A stretch of DNA of 64,000 nt from the human T2T-CHM13v2.0 reference genome, Homo sapiens (GCF_009914755.1 NC_060926.1), one strand, 5' to 3'. Positions 41,001 to 56,000 are shown, counted from the stretch's first letter. Notes: generated by a model from the letters alone, not told the origin. Translations and numbers: made by a program.

Positions 41001-44000
41001 GTCACTAATTTTTAGTAAACTCACAGTATTGTGCAGCCATTACCAAAACCTAGTTTTCAAACCTTTCCATCACCCCAAAAAGAACCCTGTGCCCACGTGC
41101 AGACACTCCCCATCCTCACCCCAGCCAACCGCTGACCTCCGTTCCTAGAGCTCGGCCTTCTCCAGCATTTCCTTTTAGACTATGATATTGTACGCTTGCA
41201 GAAATTGTTTTATCTGCAGGTATACTTGACAGTATCTGCTCTTTTTCTAGGGACATTCTGCCGAAATCATCTCCTTGTCATTTAACACCTCAGGAGACAG
41301 AATCATCACGGGGTCTTTTGATCATACCGTTGTAGTGTGGGACGCTGATACTGGAAGGTAATTCTTAGTTCTTAAGAATTGTTTTAACCTGGATCAGGGG
41401 GTTCAGAAAACCCTCTGTTATTTTTTAGTTTAAGCTACTATCTATTAACTCTGCTTTGGATTCCATAAAAATAGGACATATTGAAAATGTAAATTAATTC
41501 ATTCTTTAATGATATTTCTGATTCACAAAATATGTGCATTCTTTGAATTCTGAGCAAATAATGACAAACAGCAACATAAAAGGAGAATGTTAGCAATAGT
41601 CTGGTTATATAGCTATTATTTATTTCATGGATAATCAGATTTCAATGGCTTGTCATTATGTTAGGCAGGAATATCATGTATAAATAAAAACTCTTAGTTA
41701 ATTTCCCAAATTAATTTAGTCCAAGAACTTCAATTTCCTTCCTAATGATTTTTGGTCCTAGTTGCTAGGAAGTTAACTAAATTAGCATATTTGTGTTGGA
41801 AAACTCTACTCTTGGATTTGTCTGTGATTTAATAGAGGGGCTAATTATCAGGGGTGCCAACCAAGATGTATGCAACAAGAAATGATAGAGGAAGAAGGAC
41901 CTTTCAGTTACTTGATGTGTAGTTTCTGAACAACCAGGGGTGCACTCACCCGGTGTAAGACTACTTCTTACGGCCTTTACTATTTGTTACCCATGTCTTT
42001 TTGAAATGTTGCCTTAAGTAGCATTATTTTGATAGTTTAAAATCTAAGTACATTTTTGTTGAAATGAAATTATTTATTTAGTTAGTTAGTTTTTGAGACG
42101 GAGTCTCGCTCTGTTGCCCAGGCTGGAGTGCAGTGGCGTGATCTCGGCTCACTGCAAGCTCCGCTTCCCGGGTTCACGCCATTCTCCTGCCTCAGCCTCC
42201 CAAGTAGCAGGGACTACAGGCGCCCACCACCACGCCTGGCTAATTTTTTGTATTTTTAGTAGAGACGGGGCTTCACTGTGTTAGCCAGGATGGTCTCTAT
42301 CTCCTGATCTCGTGGATCCACCTGCCTCGGCCTCACAGAGTGCTGGGGTTACAAGCGTGAGCCACCGTGCCCGGCTGAAATGAAATTATTGGTAGCTTCT
42401 TTTTGAGCAATAGTAGAGCCATATTTGTCATCAAATATATTATTTTGTAAAAACCAGATTTTAGATTAGCTTACACAGATGGGCTTGGCCTCATTATTCA
42501 TGTGCATATACTGAAGTAAGATATCTTTCACTAGTTTTAATTATTTTTGTGTTGTAGGAAGGTAAATATCTTAATTGGTCATTGTGCTGAGATTAGCAGT
42601 GCCTCATTCAATTGGGATTGCTCTCTAATATTAACTGGCTCTATGGACAAAACCTGCAAGGTGAGCAAAATAAATAAATATCTTTGCTTTATATTGTGTC
42701 TATACTCTTTACTGTGTCAGATATCCATTGTAACATTAACAGATTTCAAAGATGATATAAAATTAAGATATTAATTTACAAAAAATAGTTGGTAATTTTT
42801 AAAATTTCTAGTTTTGGATTTTCCAAATTTGAAGGAATTGTGATGTAGTAAAGCAATTTGAATTGCTTCAAGTATATTAAATATCTTATTTGAGAAGGCA
42901 TTTTATTTTTATTTAATATCCCACTGTTCATTTATAGAACTTCAATTAGTAGAGTGACCCTCAAGGAGCCTCAAACACAGTGTTTCCTTGTCCCTAAGTT
43001 TCTATACTTAAAAAATGGTTACTAAGAGATTATACTATGGAATTATCATTTGTTTATGTAACAAATATAATCTTATAATGTACTTTCCATTTTCTGACAT
43101 TGTAGTTTTATATCAAGCTCCTAATCATTTGATGTCCTTCCTATAAAAAGAGCACAACTCTTCACCAACCAGTAAAGCATACACGTTGAGATATTTTTTC
43201 TTTCTTTAATGTAGTGGCAGATTCTAAATGTCTGACTTTGGTTTTCTCTGTGACTAGAGTGTGCCTTGCTTGATGGTTGGCTGTGGTCTCTGGTCATGAA
43301 TCAAAGTAAATCTAACTGAACATGCATGAATTACACAAGTGATTTTTGCACAGTTATTTAACCAGCCATAAGCATGTCATGAAGACCACTGGCCATCTTC
43401 ACACTTCAGACAGAAAGTCATAGTCTTTTTTTTTTTGTTTTTTGTTCTTTTAATTGTAGCTGTGGGATGCTACAAATGGAAAATGTGTGGCAACCTTAAC
43501 AGGCCATGATGATGAAATACTAGACAGCTGCTTTGATTACACTGGAAAGCTTATTGCAACTGCTTCAGCTGATGGTAGGTGATCTGTTCATTCTTTTAAT
43601 TTTTGGAGAGATTTATGCTTTGCTTGATAACCATGCATAATTCTACACTATGGGTCATTTCTTTGATGACCAGCTATGATAAAAAACCATGTCTCATCTC
43701 TATCGTGACCATGTATGGCACAATAGTGTGTCTATATCATATACCTGATAACCACATGTAATGTTATGCAATGCCTGTGTCACCTCCTACATAACGAGGT
43801 ATATGAGGTCTTTGTCATCTTCTTAATATCTGTATATGATGCTATATTCTGGGTCATCTCCCTGATTTTTATTATTATTATTATTTTGAGATGGAGTCTC
43901 ACTCTGTTGCCCAGGCTGCAGTGCAGTGGTGCGATCTCGGCTCAACGCAACCTCCGCCTCCCAGGCTCAAGTAATTTTCCTGCCTCAGCCTCCCGAGTAG

Positions 44001-53000: not shown

Positions 53001-56000
53001 ATATGATAACCATGGATATATGTCATATCCGTGATGGCCATGTATACTATATTATTTGGGTATCATCTTCTGTAGTCCACATATGACCTGTGAAGTCTCC
53101 ATTATTTTCTTGATGATCATATGTGATGCTACACTATGTCTTTTTCATCTACCTGAACTTGACAGTGATCACACATCAGGCTATACTATGTCTGCGTTAT
53201 CTCCTTTAAATCCTCATATGATGTACAGCATGTCTATGTTAACATTCTGACTCCTGTGTAGATACTACTATACATCTGGATCATCTTATTGATGATCATG
53301 TATGATGCTACACTGTGTATGTGTCAGCTCCATAATTCTGACCTATGTCTGTATAATCTCCTTGTCAGCAATGTATGACACTACACTGTATCTGCATCAT
53401 CTCCTTGATAACCACATTTGACCCTACACTATGTTTATGTTTTCTCTCTGACAACATGTGACACTAAGCTATGTCTGTGTCGTCTCCCTCATGACCATGC
53501 ATGACAGTATCTATCTATCTATCTGTCTGTCTATCTATCTATCTGTCTGTCTGTCTGTCTGTCTGTCTGTCTGTCTATCTATCTATCTATCCATCTATCG
53601 ATCGATCTATCTACTTTTTCTTCTTTATTGGAATTATTCTGAAGGCTGATTTTTTTGTTTCTTTTTTTTTTTTAGATGGAGTCTTGCTCTTTCGCCCAGG
53701 TGGGACTGCAGTGGCACTATCTCGGCTCACTGCAAGCTCTGCCTCCTGGGTTCATGCCATTCTCCTGCCTCAGCCTCCCGAGTAGCTGGGGCTACAGGTG
53801 CTCACCACCGCACCCGGCTAATTTGTTATATTTTTAGTAGAGACGGGGTTTCACCGTGTTAGCCAGGATGGTCTCGATCTTCTGACCTCGTGATCCGCCC
53901 GCCTCGGCCTCCCAAAGTGCTGGGATTACAGGCATGAGCCACTGCGCCCAGCCGATTTTTTTGTTTCTTTAGTTGTATCCCTATCTGTAAAAAAATTACA
54001 GTGTTGCAGGCCATATTATTTCTGAGTTTTCTGAAGTTTAGACATATAGTTTTATAAAACTTAGAGTGTAGATCTGTGCAGGACATTCTCTTTCATGTTA
54101 TTGACTCTGAAACCAAATTGGTCACTTCCCTTTAAGGCTTTTGAAATGTCCAACCGAATTTCAAGTTATATATTTTTTAATCACATTAATTCTAAAATGG
54201 CAGGTTTTGTCATTTTTTGTACCTCCTCATGAAGTTGACATTGTCAGAAAGGCAAGTAAAAAATTTATTATGATATTTTACTTTTCTCTGGATGCAAATC
54301 AAGTACCTACAATTTTGTATCCTTGCTATATTTTACTACTATGTAATGCTATAATCAGAGATTTAAAAAAGCAGTCTTCATCTGGCAAGGCAAATTGTAA
54401 GTTTTCTTCTAACAAAAATTTTACTACTCATGTTTTTCACTTTCAATACTTATTTATTTAACTTATTCATCCTTTACTGATGAGGAAATGTCCATAGTAC
54501 TTATTCCATCCATTTCTCCATCCATCCATCCATCCGTCCATCCATCCATCCATCCATCCATCCATCCATCCATCCATCCATCATCCATCCATCCATCCAT
54601 CCATCATCCATCCATCCATCCATCCATCCATCCATCCATCCATACTACAGCTATTTATTGAATGGCTAATATATGCTTGGTGCTTTTGGCGCTGGAGGCA
54701 GAGCAGGAAAAAAGCATTCTATTAGCTTTTTCTGTAGAAAAGGGTTTTTGAAGCCTGTTTTTTGCCTGTTGAGTAGCGGCTGATGCTCCTTCTTGGGATG
54801 TTCCTTGTGTACCTTGCAGAAACTCAGACTCACACCTAGTGTATCATGCTGGTCTTGCTGCTTATTTCATCACCTGCCTCTTGAAACTTGCTCTAATTCC
54901 TCTTTTTCTCTTAAAGTTTTTTCTTTCTGGATTCCTGCTTCTTGGTCTCTTTTCTACCTTGGAATACATTATTTCTTCTAATAAGCTCAGGGCTAAAGAG
55001 GAGCTCCCTCTCACCCTCTCCTGCAATGGGACCAGCAGGCATTTAGAGTATTAAGTATCTGGCTCTCACCACAGGCAAGAAGATGAACTTAGCACAGAGC
55101 TCGTGTGTCAGGGGGATATATATTTATACAATGCAAAGTCTTTTATCCAAAGTTCTGTATTTAAGATGAATTTATATATATCCACACCCCTCTCAAAAAG
55201 GAACAGCAAGAATTTTCAGTGCTGCCACAAGAAAATGCATTGCCAAACTGGAAGGTCATGAAGGTGAAATTTCAAAGGTGAGTCGCTTTCTCATTTGGAG
55301 GAGTTTATTTACTTTCAAAAAATAAAGAGCAGGGCCCAGGTGCAGTGCCTCACACCTATAATCCCAGCACTTTGAGAGGAAAAGGTGAGAAGATTGCTTG
55401 AGGCCAGGAGTTCAAGACCAGCCTGGGCAACATAGGGATACCTCATCTCTACAAAAAACAAAAAAAGTCAGCTGTGCATGGTGTTACCCACCTGTAGTCC
55501 CATCTACTGTGGAGGCTGAGGAAGGAGGATTGCTTGAGCCCAGGAGGTCAAGGCTGCAGTGAGATGTGATTGCACCACTGCATTCCAGCCTGGGTGACAG
55601 AGCAAGACCCTATCTAGAAAAAAAAAAAGAAAAAAAAAAAAAGCATGCTCAGTATAAATAGGTCTATTGGAATTGAAGTACTAAGATTAAGATTTGTTCT
55701 ATTGTCTCATGTTTTTTTCTAGAAATCACTTACCTAAAGACTTTATTTTTAACTGTGCCCTCAAACTTAGCATAATAAATTATTTCTAAAACCTCTTAAA
55801 AAGTATGGAACAGCATTCGCCTCCACTGTCAGCAAAAGATTTAGTTAGCTGAAGATATTTAATATGGCAATTTAAGGAGCGTGTAAACTGCTTTTCCTGG
55901 TTCCGGTAAACACATAAGTTTATGTTGTGCGAAAAATATGCTGGGCAGCAAGTATCAAGTGTTCTGTAAGTTAGATGCAATTGAGGAAGTAGTTCCTGGA

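What the first reader, a model, noticed from the sequence alone, without database searches (positions are those of the whole stretch)
43620..53507. Cryptic ~10-kb ancient 43-bp tandem array in DAW1 intron 10
Seen: from about 45 nt after the exon-10 donor, the intron is a continuous run of a degenerate unit approximately CCAYRTATGATGCTAYACTATGTCTGYRTCATCTCCYTGATAA. The period is 43 bp at several measured points, with 39-44 where indels occur. A rough hand estimate is ~7.5 kb of array after removing insertions, or about 170-180 units. The unit is not a multiple of 3, so it is not a protein repeat. It matches none of the human satellites I recall (alpha, beta, gamma, HSAT, SATR, MSR1, CER). Inference: J-like and S-lineage Alus and an MLT2 LTR sit inside it, so it is older than these insertions. 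It is probably too diverged for default tandem-repeat annotation and may pass as unique sequence. It makes intron 10 about 11.6 kb long in a motile-cilia gene. This is the best candidate for an undescribed element in the window.
Basis: partly seen in the sequence, partly recalled or inferred. Interest (0 to 1): 0.85.

Follow-up and report, generated by a model that had tools for sequence, protein, structure and literature searches.

The report
Decayed 43-bp tandem array, DAW1 intron
Most of intron 10 of the human cilia gene DAW1 is the worn-down remnant of about 170 head-to-tail copies of a 43-base unit found nowhere else in the genome; it is real and very old, and it looks like neutral fossil DNA rather than a working element.

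Summary
Window 43619-53523 (+ strand) is a degenerate 43-bp tandem array. About 7.0 kb (~168 units) survives, interrupted by about 2.9 kb of later insertions, and the span fills 85% of DAW1 intron 10.

- **Strength of signal:** a wrap-around profile alignment scores 2899 bits, against 31 or less in shuffles and 20 or less elsewhere in the window.
- **State of the units:** they are 64-72% identical to the consensus and 59% to each other, whether adjacent or 100 units apart. This fits one amplification followed by independent decay.
- **Decay pattern:** it looks neutral. C and G are lost faster than A and T, and two CpGs have decayed to CA/TG/TA. GATA-motif retention is as expected, and the unit's 7-bp inverted repeat shows no covariation.
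- **Uniqueness:** unit patterns searched across the T2T genome cluster only here, so it is not a multi-locus satellite or an abundant transposon piece.
- **Relative age:** an S-like Alu with a target-site duplication cut from a unit, a J-like Alu, a partial Alu and an old LTR-like repeat lie inside the array.
- **Detection:** TRF at standard settings finds 83 bp of it.

Verdict: a fossil minisatellite, a new member of a known kind, of low to moderate interest. Dfam status and orthologous introns could not be checked.

The parts
43619..53523 (+). Whole span of the degenerate 43-bp array including later insertions (9,905 nt, 85% of intron 10)
   Evidence: End points of the wrap-around profile alignment. 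Segmentation gives 39 array segments, 7045 bp, ~168 units.
43460..43574 (+). DAW1 exon 10 (context); the array begins 45 nt after its donor
   Evidence: Hub gene table. The donor CTGATG|gtaggt was read. The exon end and donor region are not unit-like: 8.9 bits against a null mean of 10.5.
44170..45575 (+). Well-preserved array block (about 31 units)
   Evidence: Six segments. Local lag-43 identity 0.39-0.40. Relaxed TRF: 44293-45166, period 43, 20.7 copies.
43859..44172 (-). Full-length Alu inserted in a unit, S-like by divergence, with target-site duplication TCCCTGAT
   Evidence: Sequence read. Non-CpG divergence 7.1% from the window's Alu consensus.
45555..45619 (+). (TATC)n(TGTC)n microsatellite, one of three inside or at the edge of the array
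   Evidence: TRF; family D7. The motif matches the TATGTCTGTGTC part of the unit (inference).
45846..46288 (+). Complete LTR-like interspersed repeat (TG...CA) inside the array; family name not testable here
   Evidence: Genome search gave 3446 first-look candidates, 40 of them scored; 41 non-self alignments at 69-84% identity (69-80% apart from two 55-nt pieces), many spanning query positions 1-443.
46510..46800 (+). Old Alu (J-like by divergence), followed by (AC)n at 46826-46871
   Evidence: 68% identity to the first Alu. Non-CpG divergence 17.0% and 66% of CpG sites changed, among the most diverged of the 26 Alus compared in the window. (AC)n from TRF.
47515..47780 (.). Young TA-rich tandem and palindromic repeat (periods 20, 22 and 42) interrupting the array
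   Evidence: TRF; D1 and inverted repeats I2-I25.
48616..48749 (-). Partial antisense Alu
   Evidence: BLAST to the first Alu, 83.6% over 134 nt. Non-CpG divergence 8.2%.
48642..48857 (+). Alternative DAW1 exon: acceptor from the antisense Alu poly-T/AG, donor ATG|GTATGC from an array unit; brings a stop 45 codons after the junction
   Evidence: Hub table (exons of other transcripts). Splice sites and translation.
50260..50360 (+). (TATC)n(TGTC)n microsatellite within the array
   Evidence: TRF; D7.
50412..53523 (+). Longest nearly uninterrupted array block (about 61 units)
   Evidence: Thirteen segments. Relaxed TRF: 50506-53336, period 43, 66.6 copies, 48% matches. Most genome-wide pattern matches fall here.
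53508..53613 (+). (TATC)n(TGTC)n microsatellite capping the 3' end of the array
   Evidence: TRF; D7. The flank beyond it is not unit-like: 6.5-13.4 bits against a null 95th percentile of 13.2.

Best explanation
This is a fossil minisatellite. In a distant mammalian ancestor, a 43-bp unit inside DAW1 intron 10 was amplified head to tail, by replication slippage or unequal exchange, into a homogeneous array of at least ~170 copies. The ancestral unit was probably ACCACGTATGATGCTAYACTATGTCTGCGTCATCTCCYTGATA, with two CpGs.

The array then stopped turning over, and every unit decayed independently under ordinary neutral, AT-biased mutation with methyl-CpG loss. Later it received an LTR-like element, three Alus and TA-rich repeats. 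It also gave rise to (TATC)n(TGTC)n microsatellites from its own TGTC-TGTC stretch.

Today it is passive intron filler and has most likely no function. One by-product is a unit that supplies the 5' splice site of an Alu-initiated alternative exon carrying a premature stop.

Shown here: the array itself, its uniqueness, the star-like decay, the insertions and the splice sites. Inferred: the mode of amplification, the absolute age and the neutrality.
For: **Periodicity and profile scores:** far above controls.

**Orientation:** 131 of 132 unit hits inside the array are on the + strand.

**Star-like divergence:** among 142 units with at least 35 aligned positions, mean pairwise identity is 0.592. 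It is 0.597 for neighbours, 0.587 at 10 units apart and 0.597 at 100 units apart. No long high-identity internal duplications exist; repeat families sit at 60-85% identity.

**Neutral-looking decay:**
- Consensus T is kept in 77% of units, A in 69%, G in 64% and C in 59%.
- Positions 5-6 read CA 39, TG 34, TA 27, CG 5. Positions 28-29 read CA 42, TG 35, TA 12.
- Intact TGATAA occurs 19 times against 17 expected from independent decay.
- The 7-bp inverted repeat pairs in 71.0% of cells against 70.4% in shuffles, with 186 of 500 shuffles as high.

**Single locus:**
- A 31-mer at <=3 mismatches matched 3 times genome-wide, all here, with control 0.
- A junction-spanning 30-mer matched 7 times, all here, with control 0.
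- A 24-mer matched 26 times: 17 here and 9 isolated sites elsewhere, with control 4. None of the 9 sites lies in an array; each has 1-3 weak HMM hits per 3 kb, against 54 in 3 kb of the array.

**Older than its insertions:**
- The Alu target-site duplication is made of unit sequence.
- Alu non-CpG divergences are 7%, 8% and 17%.
- The LTR-like element is 69-80% identical to its copies.
- Array units are 64-72% identical to their consensus, a Jukes-Cantor distance of 0.34 or more.
Against: - The absolute age assumes the units were identical at birth. An array built from already diverged units would look older than it is.
- Neutrality rests on within-array statistics only. No cross-species conservation, chromatin or expression data could be consulted.
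- WGATAR motifs remain about 3-4 times denser than in shuffles or in the rest of the window (4.5 per kb against 1.4 and 1.1), so a binding platform is not excluded.
- The source of the founding unit is unknown.
- A 39-bp variant recurs at scattered positions (18 of 142 units have 39 aligned positions; 15 of 142 lack 3 or more columns between positions 20 and 32). Some variant structure therefore existed during amplification, or the 4-bp slip recurred.
Confidence: 0.8

Rival explanations
1. The array is the internal tandem-repeat region of one very old transposable element copy, or was seeded from a fragment of one, rather than arising from unique intron sequence.
For: Transposons with internal minisatellites are known in general (established knowledge, not tested here). 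The 24-mer search gave 9 isolated matches elsewhere against 4 for the reversed-pattern control, a weak excess.
Against: None of the 9 outside sites shows neighbouring units. The 31-mer and the junction 30-mer match nowhere else. About 10% of units here (17 of ~168) match the 24-mer, so a family of similar decay with more than roughly 100 copies should have been seen (inference). The flanks score at background and no terminal repeats were noticed.
Confidence: 0.07
2. The array is younger than it looks. It was assembled from already heterogeneous units, or sits in a locally fast-mutating region, so the 28-36% divergence overstates its age.
For: A 39-bp variant is scattered through the array. Identity estimates depend on the alignment, ranging from 64% to 72%.
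Against: The array must predate an Alu with 17% non-CpG divergence and an LTR-like element only 69-80% identical to its copies. Neither was duplicated with the units. CA/TG/TA states at two former CpGs in most units show long independent decay after amplification.
Confidence: 0.08
3. The array is kept because it works, for example as a phased platform of GATA-type, CRE-half-site or E-box-like motifs, as a KRAB zinc-finger target, or as an intronic RNA element that tunes DAW1 splicing or elongation.
For: Each consensus unit carries TGATAA, and WGATAR density is 4.5 per kb against 1.4 in shuffles. The ancestral unit probably held CGTCA and CACGT (inference). About 7 kb has survived despite great age. 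One unit does act as a splice donor.
Against: Motif retention equals the neutral product expectation, 19 against 17. Conservation follows base type, not motif. There is no covariation in the unit's inverted repeat and no Rfam match. YCAY density equals that of dinucleotide shuffles, 34.1 against 32.5 per kb. CGTCA/TGACG is almost gone at 0.5 per kb.
Confidence: 0.05

Closest known systems
Ancient or decayed tandem repeats as a class, the targets of ULTRA, tantan and DetectRepeats
   Same: The tandem origin is recognisable only by sensitive periodic or profile methods, and substitutions and indels have blurred the pattern. This is the situation described in passages of PMC11580682 and PMC12418385. 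TRF at standard settings misses almost all of it.
   Different: Neither paper, in the passages I read, mentions this locus or a 43-bp unit. This example is unusually large for its degree of decay (about 168 units, 7 kb) and is a single-copy locus.
Large intronic VNTRs such as TRACT, the 30-bp repeat in a CACNA1C intron (PMC13131567; search listing and start of abstract only)
   Same: A kilobase-scale array of a tens-of-bp, non-coding unit inside an intron of a protein-coding gene.
   Different: TRACT is described as extremely length-variable (3-30+ kb) and therefore still active. The DAW1 array shows no local homogenisation and only 59% pairwise unit identity. Its polymorphism could not be tested.
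Named human satellite and minisatellite families (alpha, beta, gamma, HSAT, SATR, MSR1, CER and others; names recalled, no library on hand)
   Same: Head-to-tail arrays of a short non-coding unit.
   Different: Those families occur at many loci. This unit occurs at one locus only in the T2T genome. A direct comparison with Dfam consensus sequences was not possible.

Membership tests
Decayed (fossil) minisatellite or tandem array | Head-to-tail periodicity above chance | tested here: met
   Lag-43 autocorrelation about 5.8 sd above the mean of other lags. Wrap-around alignment 2899 bits against 31 or less in shuffles. Relaxed TRF calls period-41/43 arrays only here in the window.
Decayed (fossil) minisatellite or tandem array | All units in one orientation with a recoverable consensus | tested here: met
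   131 of 132 hits inside the array are on the + strand. A 43-nt consensus was recovered.
Decayed (fossil) minisatellite or tandem array | No ongoing homogenisation: unit similarity independent of distance | tested here: met
   Pairwise identity 0.597 at separation 1, 0.587 at 10 and 0.597 at 100.
Decayed (fossil) minisatellite or tandem array | Older than interspersed repeats inserted in it | tested here: met
   Alu target-site duplication of unit sequence. Alu divergences 7-17% and LTR-like copies 69-80% identical, against units 64-72% identical to their consensus.
Named multi-locus human satellite families (Dfam/Repbase) | The same unit present in arrays at other genomic loci | tested here: not met
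   31-mer matched 3 times and junction 30-mer 7 times genome-wide, all here. Of 26 24-mer matches, 17 are here and the 9 elsewhere are isolated sites without arrays.
Named multi-locus human satellite families (Dfam/Repbase) | Sequence match to a curated family consensus | not testable with these tools
   No Dfam or Repbase library was available. Rfam, the only nucleotide family library on hand, gave 0 matches.
Transposon-internal tandem repeat | Other copies of the element, or of the unit, elsewhere in the genome | tested here: not met
   BLAST with 51000-53400 found only itself.
Transposon-internal tandem repeat | Transposon termini flanking the array | tested here: inconclusive
   The flanks are not unit-like. 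The left flank is 45 nt from an exon and the right flank is a microsatellite followed by an Alu. No transposon library was available to test them.
Active polymorphic VNTR | High identity between neighbouring units and length polymorphism | tested here: not met
   Neighbouring-unit identity is 0.597. Only one pair of units reaches 85% (52895-52977). Polymorphism is not testable from one assembly.
Structured RNA or constrained motif array | Covariation, or motif retention above neutral expectation | tested here: not met
   Pairing 71.0% against 70.4% in shuffles. TGATAA 19 observed against 17 expected. No Rfam family.

The most novel reading that the evidence does not exclude
The array predates the eutherian radiation and has been kept at this position. 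Its ~170 phased units each originally carried a GATA site, a CRE half-site and an E-box-like CACGT, and they act as a chromatin or transcription-factor (or KRAB zinc-finger) platform, or as an intronic RNA element, that tunes DAW1 expression or splicing in ciliated and germ cells. That would make it one of the oldest functional single-locus tandem arrays in the human genome.
Probability: 0.04. Interest if true: 0.6.

Novelty: new member of a known kind. Interest (0 to 1): 0.25.

Why it matters
The array has three modest uses.

- **Annotation:** it is a clean, large example of sequence that standard tandem-repeat annotation treats as unique although about 7 kb of it is one decayed array. That makes it a possible benchmark for sensitive repeat finders.
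- **Intron size:** a single ancient amplification explains why DAW1 intron 10 is 11.6 kb long.
- **By-products of a dead array:** it gave rise to three (TATC)n(TGTC)n microsatellites and supplies the donor site of an Alu-initiated, stop-containing alternative exon.

It does not change what is known about repeats or about DAW1. Nothing found here suggests a role in cilia biology.

Tried and rejected
1. **Profile search of the genome.** I used IUPAC patterns instead, which the tool's own message offers.
2. **Two-anchor pattern.** TGATGCTA-N33-37-TGATGCTA turned out to have no sensitivity. The array itself has 0 such pairs, and its 23 exact TGATGCTA sites are never 41-45 nt apart. The 26 hits elsewhere are mostly unrelated tandem or duplicated sequences. 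One look-alike on contig C1 was fetched and shows no 43-bp periodicity and only weak HMM hits.
3. **Origin by duplication of the exon-10 end or splice donor.** By eye this looked similar, but it scores 8.9 bits against a null mean of 10.5. Rejected.
4. **Hairpin or cruciform constraint.** The unit's inverted repeat ATGATGC/GCATCAT shows no covariation.
5. **Selective retention of the GATA motif.** Not seen.
6. **NOVA-type YCAY cluster.** The density is explained by dinucleotide composition.
7. **Regular higher-order repeat of 39-bp and 43-bp units.** The variant positions are irregular.
8. **Rfam scan.** No match.
10. **Literature searches.** None returned a paper on this array:
    - DAW1 + tandem repeat: 2 papers, both irrelevant.
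    - WDR69 + intron + repeat: 9 papers, all on cilia.
    - 43-bp or 43 bp with repeat and satellite terms.
    - Phrases for ancient, degenerate or cryptic minisatellites and tandem repeats: 9 papers.
    
    These were judged from listings and abstracts, plus passages of two tool papers.
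Full report

Yes. Base-by-base autocorrelation of window 43620-53507 peaks at lag 43, at 0.327. The mean over lags 11-300 is 0.277 with sd 0.0086. Only lag 2 is as high, and that comes from TA-rich inserts. Four other 10-kb blocks of the window give 0.272-0.279 at lag 43. 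In 500-nt windows the best lag is 43 through most of 44250-45000, 46750-47250, 49250-49750 and 50250-53250.

A unit HMM seeded from 43 core matches gave 139 hits at E<=10. Of these, 135 lie inside 43600-53600 and 4 in the remaining ~54 kb. After three rebuilds it gave 135 hits, 132 of them inside, and 131 of those 132 are on the + strand.

The commonest start-to-start spacing is 43 (29 intervals). Spacings of 39 (11), 41 (8) and 42 (7) follow, along with multiples near 82-86. The 43-nt consensus is ACCATATATGATGCTACACTATGTCTGCATCATCTCCTTGATA.

A wrap-around (cyclic) profile alignment with gap penalty -4 scores 2899 bits. Five dinucleotide shuffles score 23-31, four other blocks of the window 15-20, and the reverse complement 29. 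A gap penalty of -3 was too permissive, with shuffles scoring 330-470, and I did not use it. The profile was trained on this region, so the real score is inflated, but not by two orders of magnitude.

**2. Anatomy**

The alignment runs from 43619 to 53523. It starts 45 nt after the exon-10 donor and spans 9,905 nt of the 11,626-nt intron. X-drop segmentation gives 39 array segments totalling 7045 bp, about 168 units, at 72% identity to the consensus. One segment, 47303-47745, includes a TA-rich low-complexity stretch from about 47515, so the true figure is slightly lower. The flanks on both sides score at background.

The non-array ~2.9 kb consists of the following.
- **Full-length antisense Alu, 43859-44172.** It is flanked by the duplication TCCCTGAT, which is unit sequence.
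- **45555-46288.** A (TATC)n(TGTC)n microsatellite, a TA-rich block, and a complete 443-nt LTR-like element at 45846-46288. The genome search for this element gave 3446 first-look candidates. Forty were scored, and the non-self alignments are 69-80% identical apart from two 55-nt pieces at 84%; many span the full length.
- **Sense Alu, 46510-46800,** followed by (AC)n.
- **Young TA-rich tandem and palindromic repeat, 47515-47780**.
- **Partial antisense Alu, 48616-48749**.
- **Two further (TATC)n(TGTC)n microsatellites,** at 50260-50360 and 53508-53613.

Against a majority consensus of 26 Alus from the window, the three Alus show non-CpG divergence of 7.1%, 17.0% and 8.2%. Subfamily names and the name MLT2 could not be tested without a repeat library.

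**3. How the units evolved**

I analysed 142 units with at least 35 aligned positions.
- Mean identity to the consensus is 0.724 and mean pairwise identity is 0.592.
- Pairwise identity does not depend on distance. It is 0.597 for neighbours, 0.589 at 2 units, 0.587 at 10, 0.593 at 50 and 0.597 at 100.
- A MAFFT alignment of the 52 full-length units (those whose next unit starts 40-46 nt on) gives 64% mean column identity. The range 64-72% reflects the alignment method and how gaps are counted.
- No long, high-identity internal duplication exists. The repeat finder returns many overlapping families of the same unit at 60-85% identity.

This star-like pattern is what one amplification (or a last complete homogenisation) followed by independent decay would give.

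The decay looks neutral.
- Counting gaps as changes, consensus T is kept in 77% of units, A in 69%, G in 64% and C in 59%.
- Positions 5-6 read CA 39, TG 34, TA 27 and CG 5. Positions 28-29 read CA 42, TG 35 and TA 12. This is the signature of two methylated CpGs in the ancestral unit.
- CpG density in the array is 4.7 per kb, against 9.5 in the rest of the window.

A 4-bp shorter version of the unit is scattered irregularly. Eighteen of 142 units have 39 aligned positions, and 15 lack 3 or more columns between positions 20 and 32. It differs by one copy of the TGTC-like stretch. That same stretch resembles the three (TATC)n(TGTC)n microsatellites, so these were probably born from the unit (inference).

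**4. Is it a member of a repeat family?**

The T2T genome that holds the window could be searched.
- BLAST with 51000-53400 found only itself.
- A 31-nt core with Y/R at the CpG sites, at <=3 mismatches, matched 3 times genome-wide. All 3 are in the array, and the reversed-pattern control gave 0.
- A 30-nt pattern spanning the unit junction matched 7 times, all in the array, with control 0.
- A 24-nt core at <=3 mismatches matched 26 times: 17 in the array and 9 single sites on other chromosomes, with control 4.
- In the 3-kb loci around those 9 sites, the unit HMM found only the seeded match plus at most two hits at E>1. It found 54 hits in a 3-kb piece of the array.

About one unit in ten here matches the 24-mer. 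A family of similar decay with more than about a hundred copies should therefore have shown up (inference). The unit is thus locus-specific. It is not a multi-locus satellite and not a piece of an abundant transposon. Direct comparison with Dfam was impossible, and Rfam gave nothing.

**5. Age (inference)**

The array must predate its insertions, since none of them was duplicated with the units and one carries a target-site duplication of unit sequence. The Jukes-Cantor distance to the consensus is 0.34 by the optimised alignment, and about 0.49 if the 64% figure is used.

The LTR-like element is about 71% identical to typical scored copies. That corresponds to about 0.18 substitutions per site per copy, roughly half the value for the array. 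The oldest Alu stands at 17%.

From recalled divergence levels, this puts the array in the range of MIR and L2 elements, about 100-200 Myr old. The estimate assumes the units were identical at birth. Orthologous introns would settle it but were not available.

**6. Function**

I found no sign of one.
- The consensus TGATAA (a GATA site) is intact in 19 units against 17 expected from independent per-position decay.
- WGATAR remains 3-4 times denser than in shuffles (4.5 against 1.4 per kb). This is simply the residue of the consensus.
- YCAY density equals that of dinucleotide shuffles.
- The unit contains a 7-bp inverted repeat, ATGATGC...GCATCAT. Pairing across 52 units is 71.0% against 70.4% in shuffles, with 186 of 500 shuffles as high, so there is no covariation.
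- The exon-10 end and donor region are not unit-like.

The one demonstrable effect on the gene is incidental. The annotated alternative exon 48642-48857 takes its acceptor (TTTTTTTCTTTGAG|ATGGAG) from the antisense partial Alu. It takes its donor (ATATG|GTATGC) from an array unit. Read in the frame that follows exon 10, it brings a stop 45 codons after the junction.

**7. Detectability and prior description**

TRF at 2 7 7 80 10 50 reports only 83 bp of the true array (52895-52977). With 2 3 5 80 10 30 its period-~43 rows cover about 5.1 kb, a few hundred bp of which are TA-rich repeats that are not units. They include 50506-53336 as 66.6 copies at 48% matches. The same relaxed settings call nothing comparable elsewhere in the window.

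The hub's table lists its 20 longest masked stretches, all 282 nt or longer. Within the array these are only the first Alu and the microsatellite/TA-rich block. This suggests that NCBI's masking leaves the array itself as unique sequence.

Literature searches found no paper on this array. They were judged from listings and abstracts. Passages of two tool papers show that ancient, nearly imperceptible tandem repeats are a recognised class for which dedicated finders exist (PMC11580682; PMC12418385). Their supplements were not examined and might list this interval among automatic calls.

**8. Verdict**

The array is a real, very old, locus-specific 43-bp array that standard annotation largely misses. 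It is best read as a fossil minisatellite decaying neutrally (confidence 0.8).

It is a new member of a known kind and not a new kind of element, and I rate interest at 0.25. The rival readings are a transposon-derived origin, a younger array that was heterogeneous from the start, and a functional motif platform. Each could be settled by the Dfam, cross-species and track look-ups listed under next steps.

Noticed in passing
window 48642-48857: An annotated alternative DAW1 exon is built from two repeats. The acceptor is the poly-T/AG of an antisense partial Alu (48616-48749). The donor ATG|GTATGC lies in a 43-bp unit. In frame after exon 10 it brings a stop after 45 codons, so it probably marks an NMD or truncated isoform.
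   Followed up: yes
window 45555-45619, 50260-50360, 53508-53613: Three compound (TATC)n(TGTC)n microsatellites sit inside or at the end of the array. Their motif resembles the TATGTCTGTGTC part of the unit, which is also where the 39-bp and 43-bp unit variants differ. This suggests the microsatellites were born from the unit.
   Followed up: partly
window 47515-47780: A young TA-rich repeat with nested periods of 20, 22 and 42 and strong palindromic character (arms up to 123 nt, 72-81% complementary). It interrupts the array and may be unstable or cruciform-prone. Derivation from the unit is not shown.
   Followed up: partly
window 45748-45843: A TA-rich duplication (2.2 copies, 92% matches) whose period is also 43 lies next to the LTR-like element. 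It does not score against the unit profile, so the equal period may be coincidence.
   Followed up: partly
window 47781-47850: A ~70-nt fragment ending ...CA looks like the end of another old LTR-type interspersed repeat (resemblance recalled, not tested). It lies between the TA-rich repeat and the resumption of the array.
   Followed up: no
G000 C2:202538259-202538430 and C20:49632865-49633081: Unrelated, well-preserved minisatellites with units of about 41 bp and 43 bp turned up in the two-anchor pattern search. They share only the octamer TGATGCTA with the DAW1 unit.
   Followed up: no
window 54505-54643: A (TCCA)n microsatellite of about 35 copies lies in the last part of intron 10, outside the array.
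   Followed up: no
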